This document shows, piece by piece, positions 56,353 through 64,000 of a stretch of 64,000 nt of DNA. The notes beneath the pieces were generated by a model. The model saw only the letters and a list, made by a program, of their open reading frames with translations, made no database searches and was not told the origin of the DNA. The position numbers and the translations under genes were made by a program. This DNA is from a virus. Numbering within the stretch: position 1 is the stretch's first letter; the number at the start of each line of letters is the position of its first letter. The DNA lies in the IMG/VR virus record IMGVR_UViG_3300028423_001099, positions 1 through 64,000 of that record; one strand, given 5' to 3'.

Positions 56353-57165
56353 TTATGATTTTTTCTTGCGACCTGATTTCATGTTGGCACACCAGTGAGC
56401 CATCTTCTGCTTCTCACCGGAACTGTTTTTGGCCATCTTTCTGAGATCAGTGATACTTTTGCTGCAGTCTACGCCTGCTCGTTTGGCTCTTCCTGGACGG
56501 CTTTTGCCTTTCTTTTTGCCATCTGCAAAGTTTTCTGCAACATCATCTTCGTTGGTGATCAGGTCTTTGCGAAATCCAAGCTCTTCTGGCATTTTGCCGT
56601 CTTTGATATGCCGATGCAGTTCTTGTTCCAGTCGGCGATAATCTATATCAGCCAACAAACTCAGCTGCCACAGCGTGCGCTGTAGTACATGGCTCCGTGA
56701 TTTGTTCTGAAACTGAGGATTTTTGCTGTTCCTGCGATAGAGTTTTACAAAATACTCCAACACGCGGTCAACTTTGCTTTCGTTGACCTGCTGTTCAGCA
56801 AACTCATCACTGGTTTTATGGTCATATTCTGCACACAGATCTAACACACTTGCATCAAGCACTTTGATCACGTCTACTGAGTTATAGCCCAGTTGCTGAT
56901 ATGCATCATATCTGTGATGACCATTGATGATGCGGTTATCCCGATCGATCACTATGGGCTTGACACCATCACTCTGTATGCGCTCTACAGTTTCTGCTGT
57001 GAGACCCGATACTCGCTCGCTCTGTGAAGGTACTAGTCTGCTCAGTGGCATGATGAGCTCTTTGGTGCGATGAGATTTTTCTAGATCCTGCGCATTTACC
57101 TGAGGCATTTTATCTCTGGGTATCTCTAGGGGCGTTACCGTCTTTGCAATCTCACTGAATCTCAT
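56353..57165 (-). CDS. ParB/sulfiredoxin-like N-terminal domain protein with basic C-terminal module
   Basis: PIVIDRDNRIINGHHRYDA; ENFADGK...C...HWCANMKSGR. Confidence 0.7.
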   Translation of the reverse strand: MRFSEIAKTVTPLEIPRDKMPQVNAQDLEKSHRTKELIMPLSRLVPSQSERVSGLTAETVERIQSDGVKPIVIDRDNRIINGHHRYDAYQQLGYNSVDVIKVLDASVLDLCAEYDHKTSDEFAEQQVNESKVDRVLEYFVKLYRRNSKNPQFQNKSRSHVLQRTLWQLSLLADIDYRRLEQELHRHIKDGKMPEELGFRKDLITNEDDVAENFADGKKKGKSRPGRAKRAGVDCSKSITDLRKMAKNSSGEKQKMAHWCANMKSGRKKKS

Positions 57166-59093
57166 TTTGAATACTTTTTCAGATAGTAGTTGACTGATTC
57201 TAGAACACGACCTACACGACCAGGTAACTGGTCTTGATCCTGCCATACATCACGACTGTCTTGTTGCGGCCACATATAGATATACTTGCCCATGTACTCA
57301 CCATCAACGCTGTCTTGTATCAGCATCCACCGCACACCACCAACATCATAAAGCTGATACTCTGCGGTATAACCCGGCATGACTCCCTCAAAATCAATGG
57401 TGCTGAGATCAGTAACAGGTACCCCGTTTTTCTTTACCCACCCAGCCACGCTGTTGACTTCAAGATGACTATTAGGACCCATGCCGCCTAAATCACCAAT
57501 CATGTAGATATCTTCAGTGGGGGTACGGGTGAATGAGCCAAACAGTTTTTTGCCCACGTGTCGTATCACACGAGACATATTGCCAGGCAAACTAGCTATT
57601 TGGTGAAATTTAGGACTCTGTACCCCATCGGTGGTTAGCTCTTTAGAGATCACCGCAGGAAGCGTGTCTGAGGTTATTTCAACTGGCTCATAACCCACGT
57701 CATCTGTGTCATCCAGTTCAATATCCTGCAATCTGCTCATAGCGCCTACCATAGTATCTGTGGGTCTGATATTGGTGGTGGCACGAGCGGTGTCTGCTGC
57801 AGTGGCCTTTTTCACAGAGACCTTTTGTGTGGAAGCCCGATTATTAGAGGTGGCAGCAGGCATGGTATCTGTTTTAGGATTTAACAAATCGTCAAGATTG
57901 TTTGTATTATTTTTTGTTTGAGTTTTTGTTTTTGTTTGTGTTTTTGTGTTTTCAGTGAATTTTTGTTTTATAGATGGATGCAGTTTTTCCATGTACTGCT
58001 TGACCACAGAGCGTAAATCTACACAGTCGCCGCCCTCGGCACGCATAAGACGAAACTGTAACAACATTTCTGGATCTGGCACTGCTATATATGCTTCCAT
58101 TTGAGAGCGTATGTCACTGGTGAGCAGCGGCTGACTCATTATCTGACGCAATTTGTACTCTGTGTCGTTGTCAGGCACAGCCTCATCAACTTGTGCACTC
58201 TCTGTGATCAGTGAACGCCAGTGGCGTTCGCCTACCTTTGAAAGTTTCTGCCAGTTTGCCTGGCTGGTATACCAGCTGCCATTGCGGGCTAATTTAAAGC
58301 CCAGCTTCCTTAGATCAGCGTCCTTCCAGCTACCACGCAGTTCGCCGGGCTTGAGAAAATAAGGTTTGGTGTTCTCTGAAGTTTTCTTCTTGCGTTTCTT
58401 TTTCTTTTTGTCCGGAGAACCATATGCTGTCAACAGTGCAGCCATGTCTTGCTCTGCTTCTATGGTCTCTGAGGTTTTTTTCTTCTTCTTTTTGCCTGCA
58501 CAATGCGCTCGTTGGCTAAAGCCTTTGGGATTTGAACAGTTGATAGAGTCTTTGTATTTTTTACTCCATGCTTCGTTGATCACATCGCTGTTCAATTCAG
58601 CCATAACTTGTAACTGTTCACCTAAACTGAGACGATCAAAACGATCAAACACACTCTCTTCTACTTGAGGTATAGCAACCTTGCTTTGTGGATCAAGTGC
58701 ATAGATTTTTTCAGTGCGCTCGTCCTGTACTATCACTGAATCTTCTGCGTCATTAGGTAGATCAGGATCAAGCTCATTGGCAGGGCTAATCACACGCACA
58801 CTATTTCCTTGCTCGCTGGGAAACACAGCATCTTTTTCCAGTTGATTGGCCTGCATTATCTGTGCTTCTGGCTCGTCTGATTCTTGATCGGTGCCTTGTG
58901 TGTTAGGGCTCGGCGATGGAGCACTACTAGGAGCGTTGCTGGGAGCAGTGCTTGGACTAGCACTGGGTTTTTGTGTGGTAGACCGGCTTTGAGCACTTGC
59001 ACCAGTTTGTTGCTGTGACACAGGCGTAGACTCACCGGAGGTCATGCCATACTCAAAAATGTCTTTTTGTCTGTTAAACTCTGACAGTTTCAT
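57162..59093 (-). CDS. large modular putative internal head protein
   Basis: MKLSEF leader; S/P/T-rich linkers; WSKKYK.SINC.NPKGFSQRAHC module. Confidence 0.6.
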   Translation of the reverse strand: MKLSEFNRQKDIFEYGMTSGESTPVSQQQTGASAQSRSTTQKPSASPSTAPSNAPSSAPSPSPNTQGTDQESDEPEAQIMQANQLEKDAVFPSEQGNSVRVISPANELDPDLPNDAEDSVIVQDERTEKIYALDPQSKVAIPQVEESVFDRFDRLSLGEQLQVMAELNSDVINEAWSKKYKDSINCSNPKGFSQRAHCAGKKKKKKTSETIEAEQDMAALLTAYGSPDKKKKKRKKKTSENTKPYFLKPGELRGSWKDADLRKLGFKLARNGSWYTSQANWQKLSKVGERHWRSLITESAQVDEAVPDNDTEYKLRQIMSQPLLTSDIRSQMEAYIAVPDPEMLLQFRLMRAEGGDCVDLRSVVKQYMEKLHPSIKQKFTENTKTQTKTKTQTKNNTNNLDDLLNPKTDTMPAATSNNRASTQKVSVKKATAADTARATTNIRPTDTMVGAMSRLQDIELDDTDDVGYEPVEITSDTLPAVISKELTTDGVQSPKFHQIASLPGNMSRVIRHVGKKLFGSFTRTPTEDIYMIGDLGGMGPNSHLEVNSVAGWVKKNGVPVTDLSTIDFEGVMPGYTAEYQLYDVGGVRWMLIQDSVDGEYMGKYIYMWPQQDSRDVWQDQDQLPGRVGRVLESVNYYLKKYSK

Positions 59094-60465: not shown

Positions 60466-60542
60466 TGTACTTCTCCTAAATGTTTACTAGGCAAACCTGT
60501 TGCCTTTGCTTTTATTTATCTTTTTTGTTAATTTAGCTGGTG

Positions 60543-60980
60543 CTACTTTTTGGTAGCTTTGGTGAATTTGTCGCCAATTTTTTCGCCACGTTGCCAGGCT
60601 TTTTGCATAGTGCCTAGTGCGCCCTTGAATTGCTTGCCTCCGGCGTCAACAGCGCCCTTGAATTTGCTATCTTTGGGTACAGTCTTTTTTTGCTGGGGTT
60701 CAGCAGCTTGCATGGCATCTTGATACTCTTTGTCTCTGATTGCTTGCATTTTTTTACGCTGTTTTTCAATTTTCTTGCGTTCTTTTTCAGACTTTTTTTC
60801 GAGGTCTTTGCGTGCAAGGCGCTCAGCTGCTCTTTGTGCACTGTCAACTGTGGTGTGAGCTCGATTGTATCTTGTCTGCTGAAAATATTTTGCTGCAGGA
60901 TCGTTGGTTGCCACAAGGCTTCTGTACACTGCCTCTGCTTCTCCTTGATCTACCTCTTCAAATAATTCTTGAATCTTCAT
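60543..60980 (-). CDS. putative head protein, basic C-terminus
   Basis: MKIQELFEE leader; late promoter 61006-61013. Confidence 0.6.
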   Translation of the reverse strand: MKIQELFEEVDQGEAEAVYRSLVATNDPAAKYFQQTRYNRAHTTVDSAQRAAERLARKDLEKKSEKERKKIEKQRKKMQAIRDKEYQDAMQAAEPQQKKTVPKDSKFKGAVDAGGKQFKGALGTMQKAWQRGEKIGDKFTKATKK

Positions 60981-61004
60981 GGATATACCACCTGTGATTT
61001 ACAA

Positions 61005-61697
61005 CTATTTATCAGTGTTGTTTGCTGTTGAAAGCAGTGGCTTGATGCCATATTTGACCAACTCGGCTCGTCTTGAACCTCCGGTGGTAATCCTCATCAT
61101 CTCAGTGTTTACCCGTTTGAAGAAAGACATTTTTTCCTTGTGGGCCATGGTGTGCCAGGTTATGGCCATGCGCCTGAGAGTCTTGTATCGTGGATTGCGT
61201 ATCTTGAGCTGTGTTTCCAATCTATATAGATAGCTTACTGCAAGCCCCGTGGTATCATCACCTGTGGCAATGCGTCTGAGAAAATCCACATGCTGACGAC
61301 GATTAAAGCTCAAAGAGTCCAAGAAATCTCTGCTGTCGGTGTGTTTTCTAAGACTTATCTGACTGCTGTGATCTACCAGTGCAGTATAAGCCAACAGATA
61401 GATGTCGGTGGCAAAAGTCCTAAACAAGGAGTAGGTGCCATACTGTATAGTGCGATAAGCATAGTCTCTGGCATACTGTTCGGTGTTTTGTTCTTGTGCT
61501 AACACATACAACAACATGGTGTGTATGAACAAGAGATCAGCAATATCTCTGCCTGAGAGTATGCCAAAACTGCGAGTGCTACGATACAACAATGCTTCGC
61601 ACAACTCGGTGTCAATAAGTTGAAAACGGTTGCTACTGCCTAGCACCTGTTTGCGAATGTCAGAGAAGCTATTGTTCATATCATTGCTCTGGGTCAT
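61005..61697 (-). CDS. conserved phage hypothetical (virion) protein
   Basis: ELCEA.LYR...YA..T..YG.Y..FR...TD.Y motif. Confidence 0.6.
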   Translation of the reverse strand: MTQSNDMNNSFSDIRKQVLGSSNRFQLIDTELCEALLYRSTRSFGILSGRDIADLLFIHTMLLYVLAQEQNTEQYARDYAYRTIQYGTYSLFRTFATDIYLLAYTALVDHSSQISLRKHTDSRDFLDSLSFNRRQHVDFLRRIATGDDTTGLAVSYLYRLETQLKIRNPRYKTLRRMAITWHTMAHKEKMSFFKRVNTEMMRITTGGSRRAELVKYGIKPLLSTANNTDK

Positions 61698-62434
61698 AGC
61701 TTGATTCCAAATAGTTGTTCATAGTCTTCTTGGTATTCACTACCACGAATGGCTGGTTCTCCTTCTGGGAACCTCTCTTCTAAGACACGTAGGGCATACA
61801 GATAGCTATACCATGCACTTGTTGCAATGGCTGGTTCGCCTTGGGGGAATCTCTCACTGAGGACATGTTTGGCATACCCGAAGCTATACTCTGCATCCCC
61901 AGCAATAGCTGGTTCTCCTTCTGGGAATCTCGCACCGAGGACATCTTCGGCATACCCGAGGCTATACCGTGCATCGTCAGCAATAGCTGGTTCTCCTTCT
62001 GGGAATCTCTCACCGAGGACATTTCTGGCATACAGATAGCTATACCGTGCATCGCCAGCTATGGCTGGTTCGCCTTCTGGGAATCTCGCTTCTAGGACAT
62101 CCAGGACATACCGATAGCTATGCCCTGCGCTCTCAGCTATGGCTGGTTCTCCTTCTGGGAATCTCCCACCGAGGACATTTCTGGCATACAGAAAGCTATA
62201 CGCTGCATCCCCAGCTATGGCTGGTTCGCCAGCTGGGAATCTTCCTTCCACAACACCTTCGGCATACCGATAGCTATACTTTGCATCTTCAGCTATGGCT
62301 GGTTCGCCAGCTGGGAATCTTCCTTCCACAACACCTTCGGCATACCGATAGCTATACTTTGCATCTTCAGCTATGGCTGGTTCTCCTGCTTGGAATCTCC
62401 CATGGAGGACTTGTCTGGCATACCGATAGCTATT
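61694..62434 (-). repeat. cassette A: nine tandem 78-bp units encoding 26-aa repeats (SYxYAxxVLxxRFPxGEPAIAxxAxY) ending RGSEYQEDYEQLFGIKL*
   Basis: Open frame with 78-nt periodicity; no credible own start; +1 frame relative to gene 62430-63224. Confidence 0.9.
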
Positions 62435-63224
62435 GCTTGTGTTCTGGAAATCCACTGAGGAAATCAATATCTCTACTTTCAATAGGGTCATCTTGTTCAT
62501 CCATAAATTGACCCGATTCATAATGCAGCAAGAACTTTCTGGGATTTTCCTTGAACAAGTCCACACTGATCTGATATACTGTGCCATCTTTAGAATAACT
62601 ATCAAACCGTTCGCCACGTCCGGTGGTTGTGCACCATTCAATCGAGTCCTTGTCGGTGTTAAGCCAGGCAAGATAGTTCATGGCGGCTTGGCTTTTGGGC
62701 ACATGAACCCTGTACCTGCTGCCGTCAATGATGGCTTCTATCTCGCCTTCTCGATAATCAGCTTCTTTGTTGCGTTTACGTTCCTGCCGTGCACTAGTAG
62801 GAGCGTCTGCCTGTTGCAGTGGTTGCACTGCTCGACGAATATCACTGAGCCGCTTGTACTGATTGATGTCTTTGATTTCCAGACGATTTTGATATTGCTG
62901 AAATCCGCTCAGTGTCTGAAAAACAGCTTCACGATCTTCCACACTAAAATCGCCATCGATATATCTGTCAACTATCCAGTTTAAATATTTGCTATATTCA
63001 GTAGGATCAAAATCAGCAATGGCTCGCAACACTGGCTCTGCGGGATGAGATTCGGGATCTTCCTGATTATTGCTGGCCACAGTGCTGTCTACATCTGCAG
63101 CACGATCTGCCTGTGCAGCTTGTAACAGTTTGTCCATCTTCTGTTTGTTTTTGAGAATACCTTGAACTTTGGTCTCTGCATACTCAAGAAGAAGGTGTCC
63201 TCCTATGATCTCAAATATTTTCAT
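62430..63224 (-). CDS. phage protein with KDINQY and WCT...F..Y domain (putative internal/virion protein)
   Basis: MKIFEII leader; late promoter 63255-63262; DP...KY..W, KDINQYK, WCT, QFMDEQD. Confidence 0.7.
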   Translation of the reverse strand: MKIFEIIGGHLLLEYAETKVQGILKNKQKMDKLLQAAQADRAADVDSTVASNNQEDPESHPAEPVLRAIADFDPTEYSKYLNWIVDRYIDGDFSVEDREAVFQTLSGFQQYQNRLEIKDINQYKRLSDIRRAVQPLQQADAPTSARQERKRNKEADYREGEIEAIIDGSRYRVHVPKSQAAMNYLAWLNTDKDSIEWCTTTGRGERFDSYSKDGTVYQISVDLFKENPRKFLLHYESGQFMDEQDDPIESRDIDFLSGFPEHKQ

Positions 63225-63303
63225 AAAATGTTTCCTATATAGTGCTTTACGGTGTATTTATCAAACACTTTAGTAAAACTATTATTCATATCATTGCTCA
63301 GGC

Positions 63304-63576
63304 TCATAACTTGATTCCAACTAGTTCTTCGTAGTCTTCTTGGTATTCACTACCACGGATGGCTGGTTCTCCTTGGGGGAATCTCTCTTCTAGGACATCT
63401 TCGGCATACAGATAGCTATACTCTGCGCTCTCAGCTATGGCTGGTTCTCCTTGGGGGAATCTCTCTTCTAGGACATCTTCGGCATACCGATAGCTATACT
63501 TTGCATCTTCAGCTATGGCTGGTTCTCCTGCTTGGAATCTCCCATGGAGGACTTGTCTGGCATACCGATAGCTATT
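63304..63576 (-). repeat. cassette B: three 78-bp units of the same 26-aa repeat plus the same C-terminal cap (90 codons), start-less
   Basis: Manually translated NSYRYARQVLHG...YEELVGIKL*; 100 bp identical to cassette A. Confidence 0.88.
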
Positions 63577-63585
63577 TCAGGCTCA

Positions 63586-63999
63586 CTATTCATCATCCTT
63601 TGAGAATATTTCCCCATATAACTCATCACGGAGTCTATCAAATGCAGACTCTTCGTGAAAACCGATCCAGCCATCGTGTGGTTCACGGAAACTGAAATTC
63701 CAAATGATTGCTTCCGATATGTCATCGTGTATGGCATCCAAAAAGTCATCAATGTCCTCATGTACATCAAACTCTAAATCAAATTCTCTGAGTGAATAGG
63801 TGATATAGTATTGATCAGCATGTAATATATTATCACCGTCATATCTCAGATATGGTATGTCTTCTAGTGCTGATTTGAAGTGTTTGTGCATGTCATTTTC
63901 GGCACCAACTGCAATCCCTTCAAAGTATGCACTATCCAAAGCACTGACAATTTCATCAATGTTATTGTCATATACAAAATCAAAGATATCTTGTTCACC
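63586..63999 (-). CDS. C-terminal part of an acidic hypothetical protein (continues beyond window)
   Basis: Frame stays open to the window edge (GEQDIFDFVYD...). Confidence 0.65.
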   Translation of the reverse strand, partial: GEQDIFDFVYDNNIDEIVSALDSAYFEGIAVGAENDMHKHFKSALEDIPYLRYDGDNILHADQYYITYSLREFDLEFDVHEDIDDFLDAIHDDISEAIIWNFSFREPHDGWIGFHEESAFDRLRDELYGEIFSKDDE

Positions 64000-64000
64000 A

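What the first reader, a model, noticed from the sequence alone, without database searches (positions are those of the whole stretch)
61694..63590. Two start-less hypervariable 26-aa repeat cassettes parked directly behind the stop codons of two different genes
Seen: cassette A (9 units, 61694-62434) and cassette B (3 units, 63304-63576) begin at the same nucleotide motif. Their first 100 bp are identical (62335-62434 = 63477-63576) and they share the C-terminal cap. A is in the +1 frame of gene 62430-63224, whose TAG overlaps the cassette start. B is in frame with the upstream gene but blocked by TAG TGA GCC TGA. Both frames are otherwise stop-free. Framework residues (Y.YA..V...RFP.GEPAI) are fixed while a set of intervening positions vary from unit to unit. 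Inference: a modular alpha-solenoid binding module that is switched onto different virion/effector proteins by recoding or recombination, or kept as silent donor cassettes for diversification.
Basis: partly seen in the sequence, partly recalled or inferred. Interest (0 to 1): 0.85.

Follow-up and report, generated by a model that had tools for sequence, protein, structure and literature searches.

The report
Leaderless repeat-gene remnants in a jumbo phage
Two start-less stretches of a 26-residue helical repeat in a large lake phage are most likely fresh deletion scars of ordinary repeat-protein genes, not a switching or recoding device.

Summary
On the minus strand, cassette A (9 units, 61694-62434) and cassette B (3 units, 63304-63576) are stop-free, lack a start of their own, and share exactly 100 identical first bases.

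They belong to a widespread, unnamed phage family of small all-helical solenoid proteins. An intact member, gene C, has a start, a 51-residue leader, 3 units and the same cap. It lies just outside the window.

Both cassettes lack the leader. Gene E (264 aa) upstream of A is cut short. It equals the first 264 of 282 residues of a protein found on two other contigs, which probably also carry identical C, D and F. All six other relatives keep the 18-residue tail. Contigs from other lakes show full-length E, then probably a leader, then repeats.

B keeps a remnant of the family's start (GTG AGC CTG AA.) but is one base out of frame. In relatives, 15 of 15 arrays scanned have an in-frame start.

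No reverse transcriptase, recombinase, inverted repeat or mosaic tract was found. The variable codons give pN/pS 0.96.

Best reading: recent deletion and recombination scars leaving untranslated gene remnants (about 0.62). Recoding or silent donor cassettes remain possible but unsupported.

The parts
61694..62434 (-). Cassette A: 9 units of 26 aa plus the C-terminal cap and a TGA stop. It has no leader and no family-type start, and lies in the +1 frame relative to gene E.
62335..62434 (-). The 100-nt tract identical to 63477-63576. It covers the first unit plus 22 nt of the second.
62430..63224 (-). Gene E' (264 aa, WCT-type domain). It is a truncated allele lacking the last 18 codons found in P0128 and in six other relatives. 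Its TAG stop is supplied by the cassette.
63221..63307 (-). A 28-codon stub (MSLSNDMNNSF...), a degenerate copy of the start of gene F. It overlaps B's stop and E's start by ATGA.
   Evidence: also present upstream of E in a relative's contig (record 27)
63304..63576 (-). Cassette B: 3 units plus cap and a TGA stop. It holds no start codon in frame before the last six codons.
63572..63586 (-). Remnant of the family's gene start: GTG AGC CTG AAA TAG. Compare ATG AGC CTG AAT at the start of D. B lies in its +1 frame. The 10-mer TGAGCCTGAA occurs only here and at D's start in the 86.6-kb record.
63586..64000 (-). The 3' part of gene D (254 aa; its start lies at 64350, outside the window). D has the family's first 17 leader residues followed by an unrelated body. 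Its C-terminus is native.
61005..61697 (-). Gene F (230 aa, no known family). Its start overlaps A's stop by ATGA.

Best explanation
A and B are 5'-truncated, probably untranslated remnants of ordinary genes of a multi-copy phage family of small helical-repeat proteins. They sit in a fast-recombining gene block of a large lake phage.

The normal gene has a start overlapping the previous stop (ATGA), a leader of about 50 residues (M-S-L-N-L-Y-x-Y-H-x-x-P-E-S-L...), then repeats and a cap. Gene C is such a gene.

In B the leader was deleted between the fourth codon and the first repeat. That left a GTG start one base out of frame.

In A a deletion of about 240 nt removed E's last 18 codons, the spacer and the leader. 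It joined E to the same first-repeat position, again one base out of frame. I infer that size from record lengths; the letters themselves were not shown.

The 100 identical bases show that the two 5' ends were copied from one another by recent recombination.

Shown: family membership, the missing leaders, the truncation of E, and its rarity among contigs. Inferred: the order of events, that the cassettes are not translated, and that the frames are intact only because the events are recent.
For: 1. Family and normal form.
- Cassette A finds 356 metagenome proteins (E <= 0.001 among 8000 candidates scored).
- The small members share leader, repeats and cap.
- Gene C is intact and lies next door.

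2. Gene E.
- E' equals residues 1-264 of P0128 with 0 mismatches. P0128 has 282 aa and sits on 2 JGI contigs.
- The 264-aa form is on 1 contig, ours.
- C, D and F are each on 3 contigs.
- P0121 and P0129-P0131 (8-10 mismatches) and P0122/P0123 (59/54% identity) all keep the tail.

3. Contigs of relatives from four runs of four studies.
- Three match E down to 62434 and then go on unlike.
- One loose end reads on, in my own reading, as E's tail.
- A 1273-nt record carries at most 242 letters between E's last shared base and a repeat unit. That fits tail, spacer and leader.
- Two other records show the same first unit preceded by what I read as a leader-type frame.

4. B's upstream remnant. The 10-mer TGAGCCTGAA occurs only at D's start and just before B in the record.

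5. Arrays in relatives. 15 of 15 rows in 9 loci (13 distinct arrays) have an in-frame ATG at least 18 codons upstream of the first unit. In this record C does too, B has none, and A has one only inside E.

6. No diversification machinery.
- No reverse transcriptase, serine recombinase or tyrosine recombinase in the 86.6 kb.
- 0 inverted repeats.
- No Rfam match.
- No identity tract of 28 nt or more between C and B, and only the cap (45 nt) between C and A.
Against: - Both cassettes break at the same nucleotide of the first repeat. Both would come into frame with an upstream start-bearing frame if one A were removed (xAA TAG C in both). Two independent deletions should not share an end, so a copying step with a sharp 5' edge is needed, and I cannot specify it.
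- One search found no near-identical, leader-bearing version of A or B among called proteins. What lies between full-length E and F on the two other contigs is therefore unknown. The array may be start-less there as well.
- One run holds the same 80 nt of the first unit behind what I read as a leader (record 19). An intact copy with this 5' end therefore exists in some genome or strain.
- Whether the cassettes are translated was not tested. No RNA holder was listed.
Confidence: 0.62

Rival explanations
1. Programmed +1 frameshifting at xAA TAG C. Ribosomes stalled at the TAG shift one base. The products would be a WCT-repeat fusion (E' plus A, about 510 aa) and a leaderless repeat protein from the GTG (B).
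For: Both cassettes lie in the +1 frame of an upstream frame that has a start. Both junctions read xAA TAG C. The fusion product would copy an architecture common in relatives. A purine-rich AAGGA lies 9 nt before the GTG (my reading).
Against: The site is not conserved. All seven relatives of E are full length without it, including one identical over 264 residues. The two sites share their sequence by descent (100-nt identity), so they count as one observation. The frame coincidence has a chance of roughly 1 in 3 to 1 in 9. CAA cannot re-pair in the +1 frame. I saw no SD-like stimulator at prfB-like spacing (established knowledge of prfB; sequence read).
Confidence: 0.06
2. Silent donor cassettes. 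A and B are kept promoter-less and start-less as stores of variant units. These would be copied by homologous recombination into an expressed copy (C, or a leader-bearing copy elsewhere), as in pilE/pilS or vlsE.
For: One intact copy and two 5'-truncated, stop-free copies lie in the same orientation within 3.1 kb. The 100-nt identical tract proves recent exchange between copies. A leader-bearing copy with the same first 80 nt exists in one run.
Against: No mosaic tracts link C to A or B. The variable codons show pN/pS 0.96, not above 1. Relatives carry leader-bearing genes at the same places, and 15 of 15 arrays elsewhere have starts. The A junction damages a neighbouring gene and is a minority allele. 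Direct orientation favours deletions.
Confidence: 0.08
3. Assembly artefact. One or both junctions, or the link of the shared 100 nt to the rest of A, were made by the metagenome assembler from mixed strains.
For: The E'/A junction is on 1 of 3 contigs. Relatives' assemblies break inside these arrays: a 27,347-nt contig starts inside the array, and a 1273-nt contig ends in it. No laid contig bridges either junction.
Against: The two sides of each junction share at most 1-2 bases, so an overlap-based join is unlikely (inference from how de Bruijn assemblers work). The record holds no N. A 108-nt piece with 0 differences from another run spans the end of the shared tract into A (62276-62383).
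Confidence: 0.1
4. A is translated from the in-frame ATG or TTG inside E, as a gene overlapping E. That would give about 51-79 unrelated residues followed by the repeats.
For: The frame is open for 81 codons upstream, with a TTG at 62671 and an ATG 51 codons before the first unit.
Against: No such protein is in the collection that holds this record's other proteins. The upstream residues resemble no leader. The open stretch belongs to E's +1 frame. In my reading of the 30 loose letters, it ends at a stop just past E's shared part in the full-length allele.
Confidence: 0.04

Closest known systems
Unnamed phage family of 26-residue helical-repeat proteins (gene C = P0030, P0013, P0072, P0087 and others)
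   Same: Same unit motif, same cap, same gene order with ATGA overlaps, and tandem paralogues.
   Different: A and B lack the leader and a start. The family carries no name or function in Pfam, PHROGs or the Atlas.
WCT-domain proteins fused in frame to the same repeats (P0004, P0011, the 521-residue protein of L057)
   Same: E is homologous to their N-terminal domain (E = 4e-06 and 3e-17). E is followed by the repeats.
   Different: Here the two parts are in different frames with a TAG between them, and E has lost its C-terminal helix.
Silent-cassette variation systems (Neisseria pilE/pilS, Borrelia vlsE; recalled)
   Same: An intact copy plus 5'-truncated, stop-free copies nearby.
   Different: No mosaic tracts, no conservation, and no sign of selection for change.
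Programmed +1 frameshift sites (prfB CUU UGA C; Euplotes AAA UAG/UAA; recalled)
   Same: A stop codon followed by C, with AAA or CAA in the P site, and the downstream frame at +1.
   Different: No conservation, no stimulator seen, and CAA cannot re-pair.
Generic alpha-solenoids (HEAT, TPR, Sel1, designed helical repeats)
   Same: Two-helix repeats stacked in a row. Best VIA matches: designed repeat proteins at Z 5.4 (rmsd 3.3, 95 aligned) and 5.2, and the PP2A HEAT subunit at Z 5.0.
   Different: No Foldseek match at E <= 0.001. The unit is 26 residues long with its own motif.

Membership tests
Phage 26-residue helical-repeat family (canonical small form) | 26-residue unit Y-S-Y-x-Y-A-x-x-V-L-x-x-R-F-P-x-G-E-P-A-I-A | tested here: met
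   9 units in A and 3 in B; unit HMM hits
Phage 26-residue helical-repeat family (canonical small form) | C-terminal cap I-R-G-S-E-Y-Q-E-D-Y-E-x-x-F-G-I-K-L | tested here: met
Phage 26-residue helical-repeat family (canonical small form) | N-terminal leader M-(S)-L-N-L-Y-x-Y-H-x-x-P-E-S-L ... W-A-x-S-A | tested here: not met
   Absent from A and B, present in C
Phage 26-residue helical-repeat family (canonical small form) | Own start codon in frame | tested here: not met
   B has none. A has one only inside gene E. 15 of 15 arrays in relatives have one
Phage 26-residue helical-repeat family (canonical small form) | All-helical solenoid fold | tested here: met
   Model of C: pLDDT 95.4, pTM 0.86. 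A and B themselves were not folded
WCT-domain-repeat fusion proteins | N-terminal domain with the invariant W-C-T, homologous to E | tested here: met
WCT-domain-repeat fusion proteins | One open frame through both parts | tested here: not met
   TAG and a +1 offset at 62430-62434
Programmed +1 frameshift | Shift site conserved among relatives | tested here: not met
   7 of 7 relatives of E are full length without the junction
Programmed +1 frameshift | Measured shifting or a junction peptide | not testable with these tools
   No RNA or peptide data
Silent-cassette gene conversion system | Tracts of cassette sequence in the expressed copy | tested here: not met
   No exact tract of 28 nt or more between C and B; only the 45-nt cap between C and A
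Diversity-generating retroelement | Reverse transcriptase near the variable repeat | tested here: inconclusive
   No RVT_1 match in the 86.6 kb, but the record is about 21% of the genome
Invertible cassette systems (Mu Gin, P1 Cin) | Inverted repeats flanking the cassettes, and an invertase | tested here: not met
   0 inverted repeats in 60900-64000. No Resolvase or Phage_integrase match in the record. All copies are in direct orientation

The most novel reading that the evidence does not exclude
The two leaderless cassettes are kept on purpose. Either a +1 shift at xAA TAG C hangs the variable solenoid on the WCT protein and makes a leaderless form, or they serve as silent stores of variant units for an expressed copy. 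The second would be a phage analogue of pilS or vls cassettes working without a dedicated recombinase.
Probability: 0.1. Interest if true: 0.8.

Novelty: new member of a known kind. Interest (0 to 1): 0.3.

Why it matters
As it stands, this is a clean snapshot of gene birth and death in a phage multigene family. A deletion of about 240 nt has placed a WCT-domain gene one base away from the WCT-repeat fusion seen in relatives, so the locus may show how such fusions arise.

The larger open question is the family itself. Hundreds of viral proteins share a fixed framework and free surface positions. They often occur several per genome and have no known partner or function.

If the cassettes were expressed or used as donors, that would be a new kind of phage variation system. 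The evidence here does not favour that.

Tried and rejected
- Pfam, PHROGs: no family above cut-off for A, B, D, E or F. HTH_35 scores 19.3 bits against a cut-off of 25. phrog_28193 has no known function.
- Phage GenBank blastn with 61000-64000: no match.
- tRNA scan: none.
- Rfam on 60500-64000: none.
- Close relatives in IMG/VR or JGI metagenomes: only relatives at 31% identity or less for E, none for F or P0137. Two exact DNA patterns found nothing. Near-identical records may be left out of these collections.
- Expression: no RNA holder listed.
- Parts of the stretch without cover in some runs, and small word shares (0.27 or less), are not used as evidence.
- Fold searches: C has no Foldseek match at E <= 0.001 and VIA Z of at most 5.4. 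E (model pLDDT 73.8) has VIA Z of at most 4.9. No function can be drawn from these.
- Promoter and terminator scan: 5 promoter-like sites against 6.1 expected, all on the + strand. The 8 terminator-like sites are all on the + strand and mostly inside the repeats, so I read them as repeat artefacts.
- Group I intron or insertion reading of D: removing the DNA between the two TGAGCCTGAA copies would still leave B out of frame (my reading).
- Literature: motif strings, PF13693/HTH_35 and phage repeat multigene terms gave nothing on this family. Only search listings and abstract starts were seen.
- Earlier findings of this scan: none for this genome.
- Alignment-based locus search failed because no block was conserved enough, so a single protein was used instead.
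Full report
**What is there**

The window is the first 64,000 bases of an 86,576-base IMG/VR virus record. CheckV puts the record at about 21% of a genome, which would make this a phage of several hundred kilobases.

Among 81 ORFs scanned, the window encodes ribonucleotide reductase, MazG, dCMP deaminase, two QueD-like enzymes, Hsp20, a peroxiredoxin, peptide deformylase and an S21-like protein.

Everything in the finding lies on the minus strand. Read 5' to 3', the order is as follows:
- a 647-codon open frame;
- gene C (64775-64350, outside the window);
- gene D (64350-63586);
- cassette B (63576-63304);
- a 28-codon stub;
- gene E (63224-62430);
- cassette A (62434-61694);
- gene F (61697-61005).

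**The observation**

- Tandem Repeats Finder reports period 78 for both arrays.
- Cutting them into 78-nt units gives 9 units plus cap for A and 3 units plus cap for B.
- The first 100 nt of A and B are identical, and the identity ends sharply on both sides.
- A starts inside the last sense codon and the TAG of E, in the +1 frame.
- B follows D in frame, behind TAG TGA GCC TGA.
- Both are stop-free.

So the description is right. Three additions are needed:
- A's frame is open for 81 codons back into E and contains a TTG and an ATG there.
- A third copy, gene C, is intact.
- The variable codons are free rather than driven. pN/pS is 0.96 at the 12 variable codons and 0.06 in the framework, over 91 unit pairs, with the duplicate unit B1 left out.

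**What the repeat is**

Cassette A finds 356 proteins at E <= 0.001 among the 8000 candidates scored. All come from metagenomes, and the few source names are almost all 'hypothetical protein'. The Atlas places C among clusters that are 96-100% viral and unnamed.

The small members share one plan:
- a leader M-(S)-L-N-L-Y-x-Y-H-x-x-P-E-S-L ... W-A-x-S-A of about 50 residues;
- 3 to 6 units;
- the cap ...I-R-G-S-E-Y-Q-E-D-Y-E-x-x-F-G-I-K-L.

Gene C (P0030, 142 aa) is such a protein. With 23 aligned sequences, AlphaFold2 gives an all-helical solenoid for it (pLDDT 95.4, pTM 0.86).

Solved structures give only generic likeness. There is no Foldseek match at E <= 0.001. The best VIA matches are designed repeat proteins at Z 5.4 and 5.2 and a HEAT subunit at Z 5.0.

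In relatives the genes often stand in tandem with overlapping stop and start; locus L054 has four in a row.

The repeats also occur behind other N-terminal domains. The most frequent is a domain with an invariant W-C-T, which is homologous to E.

I found no paper on the family (listings only).

**The E/A junction is a deletion scar**

E is 264 aa here. The exact look-up places it in a cluster of six:
- Our form is on one contig.
- P0128 (282 aa) is identical over all 264 residues and continues with 18 more. It is on two JGI contigs, the longest of 90,784 nt.
- C, D and F are each on three JGI contigs with the same longest length. The other two contigs are therefore probably the same phage (inference).
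- Four further members (8-10 mismatches), and P0122 and P0123 (59 and 54% identity), also carry the tail.

In the model of full-length E, residues 260-278 form a helix. The truncated form loses most of it.

Contigs of relatives from runs of four studies were laid on 61500-64000. They show:
- In X1, X4 and X9 a contig follows E down to 62434 and then becomes unlike the window.
- The X9 loose end reads on, in my reading of its 30 letters, as the tail.
- The X4 record of 1273 nt has 337 letters beyond 62434. Of these, 95 lie on a repeat unit (joint 62121 to 62434), leaving at most 242.
- The tail with its stop takes 57 of those. The rest fits a short spacer and a 51-codon leader. This is inferred; the letters were not shown.
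- A 27,347-nt X4 contig begins inside the array and runs through the cap into F.

The ancestral order is therefore full-length E, then probably a leader, then the array, the cap and F. In this record about 240 nt are missing.

**The D/B junction**

D is not truncated. HMMER over 1.84 billion representatives finds 10 proteins at E <= 0.001, D itself included. P0134 (681 aa, 56% identity over D residues 28-254) ends with the same last residues as D.

D begins with the family's first 17 leader residues and then has an unrelated body. P0137 (262 aa, 37% identity) has the same beginning.

Directly after D's TAG comes TGAGCCTGAA. This is the family's start motif without its first A, so a GTG overlaps the stop. 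The 10-mer occurs only twice in the record, at D's start and here.

Then the first repeat follows at once: GTG AGC CTG AAA TAG. B lies in the +1 frame of this five-codon frame. B is thus a family gene whose leader was deleted, out of frame.

In X4 and X8, contigs show the same or a similar first unit preceded by what I read as a leader-type frame (loose ends at 63566 and 63575; my reading).

**What remains odd**

- Both cassettes break at the same base of the first repeat, share the next 100 nt, and are each one A away from being in frame.
- The shared tract shows that one 5' end was copied from the other, so the two are not independent. But I cannot name a simple event that copies a tract with such a sharp 5' edge next to two different upstream sequences.
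- One possible route is an illegitimate tandem duplication joining E to the start of B, followed by homologous deletion within the repeats. This is speculative.
- No near-identical leader-bearing version of A or B is among the called proteins. The state of the array on the two other contigs is therefore unknown. Assemblies do break in these arrays.

**Tests of the more exciting readings**

Recoding:
- The junction is absent from 7 of 7 relatives of E.
- CAA cannot re-pair in the +1 frame.
- I saw no stimulator (sequence; recalled knowledge of prfB).

Donor cassettes:
- No exact tract of 28 nt or more links C with B. Only the 45-nt cap links C with A.
- There is no excess of amino-acid change.
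- 15 of 15 array rows in 9 related loci (13 distinct arrays) have an in-frame ATG upstream.

Enzymes and structures of known variation systems:
- No RVT_1, Resolvase or Phage_integrase match in the 86.6 kb. This is weak evidence, because the record is a fragment.
- No inverted repeats.
- No Rfam family.

The intact frames carry little weight. The allele with the deletion is identical to the full allele over 264 residues, so too little time has passed for stops to appear (inference).

**Verdict**

Here, however, the two cassettes are best read as young remnants left by deletion and recombination in a tandem gene family (about 0.62).

Assembly error (0.10), silent cassettes (0.08), +1 recoding (0.06) and translation from inside E (0.04) remain possible.

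Interest is modest. It rests mostly on the uncharacterised family and on the near-miss gene fusion.

Noticed in passing
record 64350-64775 (outside the window; L002:1501-1926, minus strand): Gene C is an intact 141/142-aa member of the repeat family with a leader, 3 units and the cap.
   Followed up: yes
window 63586-64000 and on to 64350 (gene D): D carries the repeat family's first 17 leader residues on an unrelated body. P0137 (37% identical) has the same N-terminus. The body is homologous to the C-terminal domain of 547-681-aa proteins that have an H-C-G-N motif domain. The leader may therefore have a role of its own, or be spread by recombination at gene starts.
   Followed up: partly
window 62430-63224 and loci L004-L018, L053, L057: The WCT-type domain of E (W197-C198-T199 are the only invariant columns in 17 aligned sequences) is fused in relatives to many unrelated C-terminal extensions of 434-606 aa. 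It has no Pfam family and no clear fold match (Z of at most 4.9).
   Followed up: partly
window 62434-62677, minus strand: The +1 frame of E is open for 81 codons before the cassette. I take this to be chance, but it makes a 325-codon ORF in mechanical lists.
   Followed up: partly
window 57162-59093, minus strand: A 643-aa ORF with low-complexity Ser/Pro/Ala/Thr stretches and two poly-lysine runs (KKKKKK, KKKKKRKKK). It has no PHROG family.
   Followed up: no
window 1245-46564: A set of host-like genes typical of very large phages: MazG, gamma-glutamyl cyclotransferase, dCMP deaminase, peroxiredoxin, Hsp20, an S21-like protein, two QueD-like genes, peptide deformylase, and both RNR subunits.
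   Followed up: no
window 61755-61773, 63365-63383, 63443-63461 (+ strand): Terminator-like hairpins were found 8 times against 2.2 expected. They lie on the strand opposite to the genes, and most come from the repeat sequence itself.
   Followed up: no
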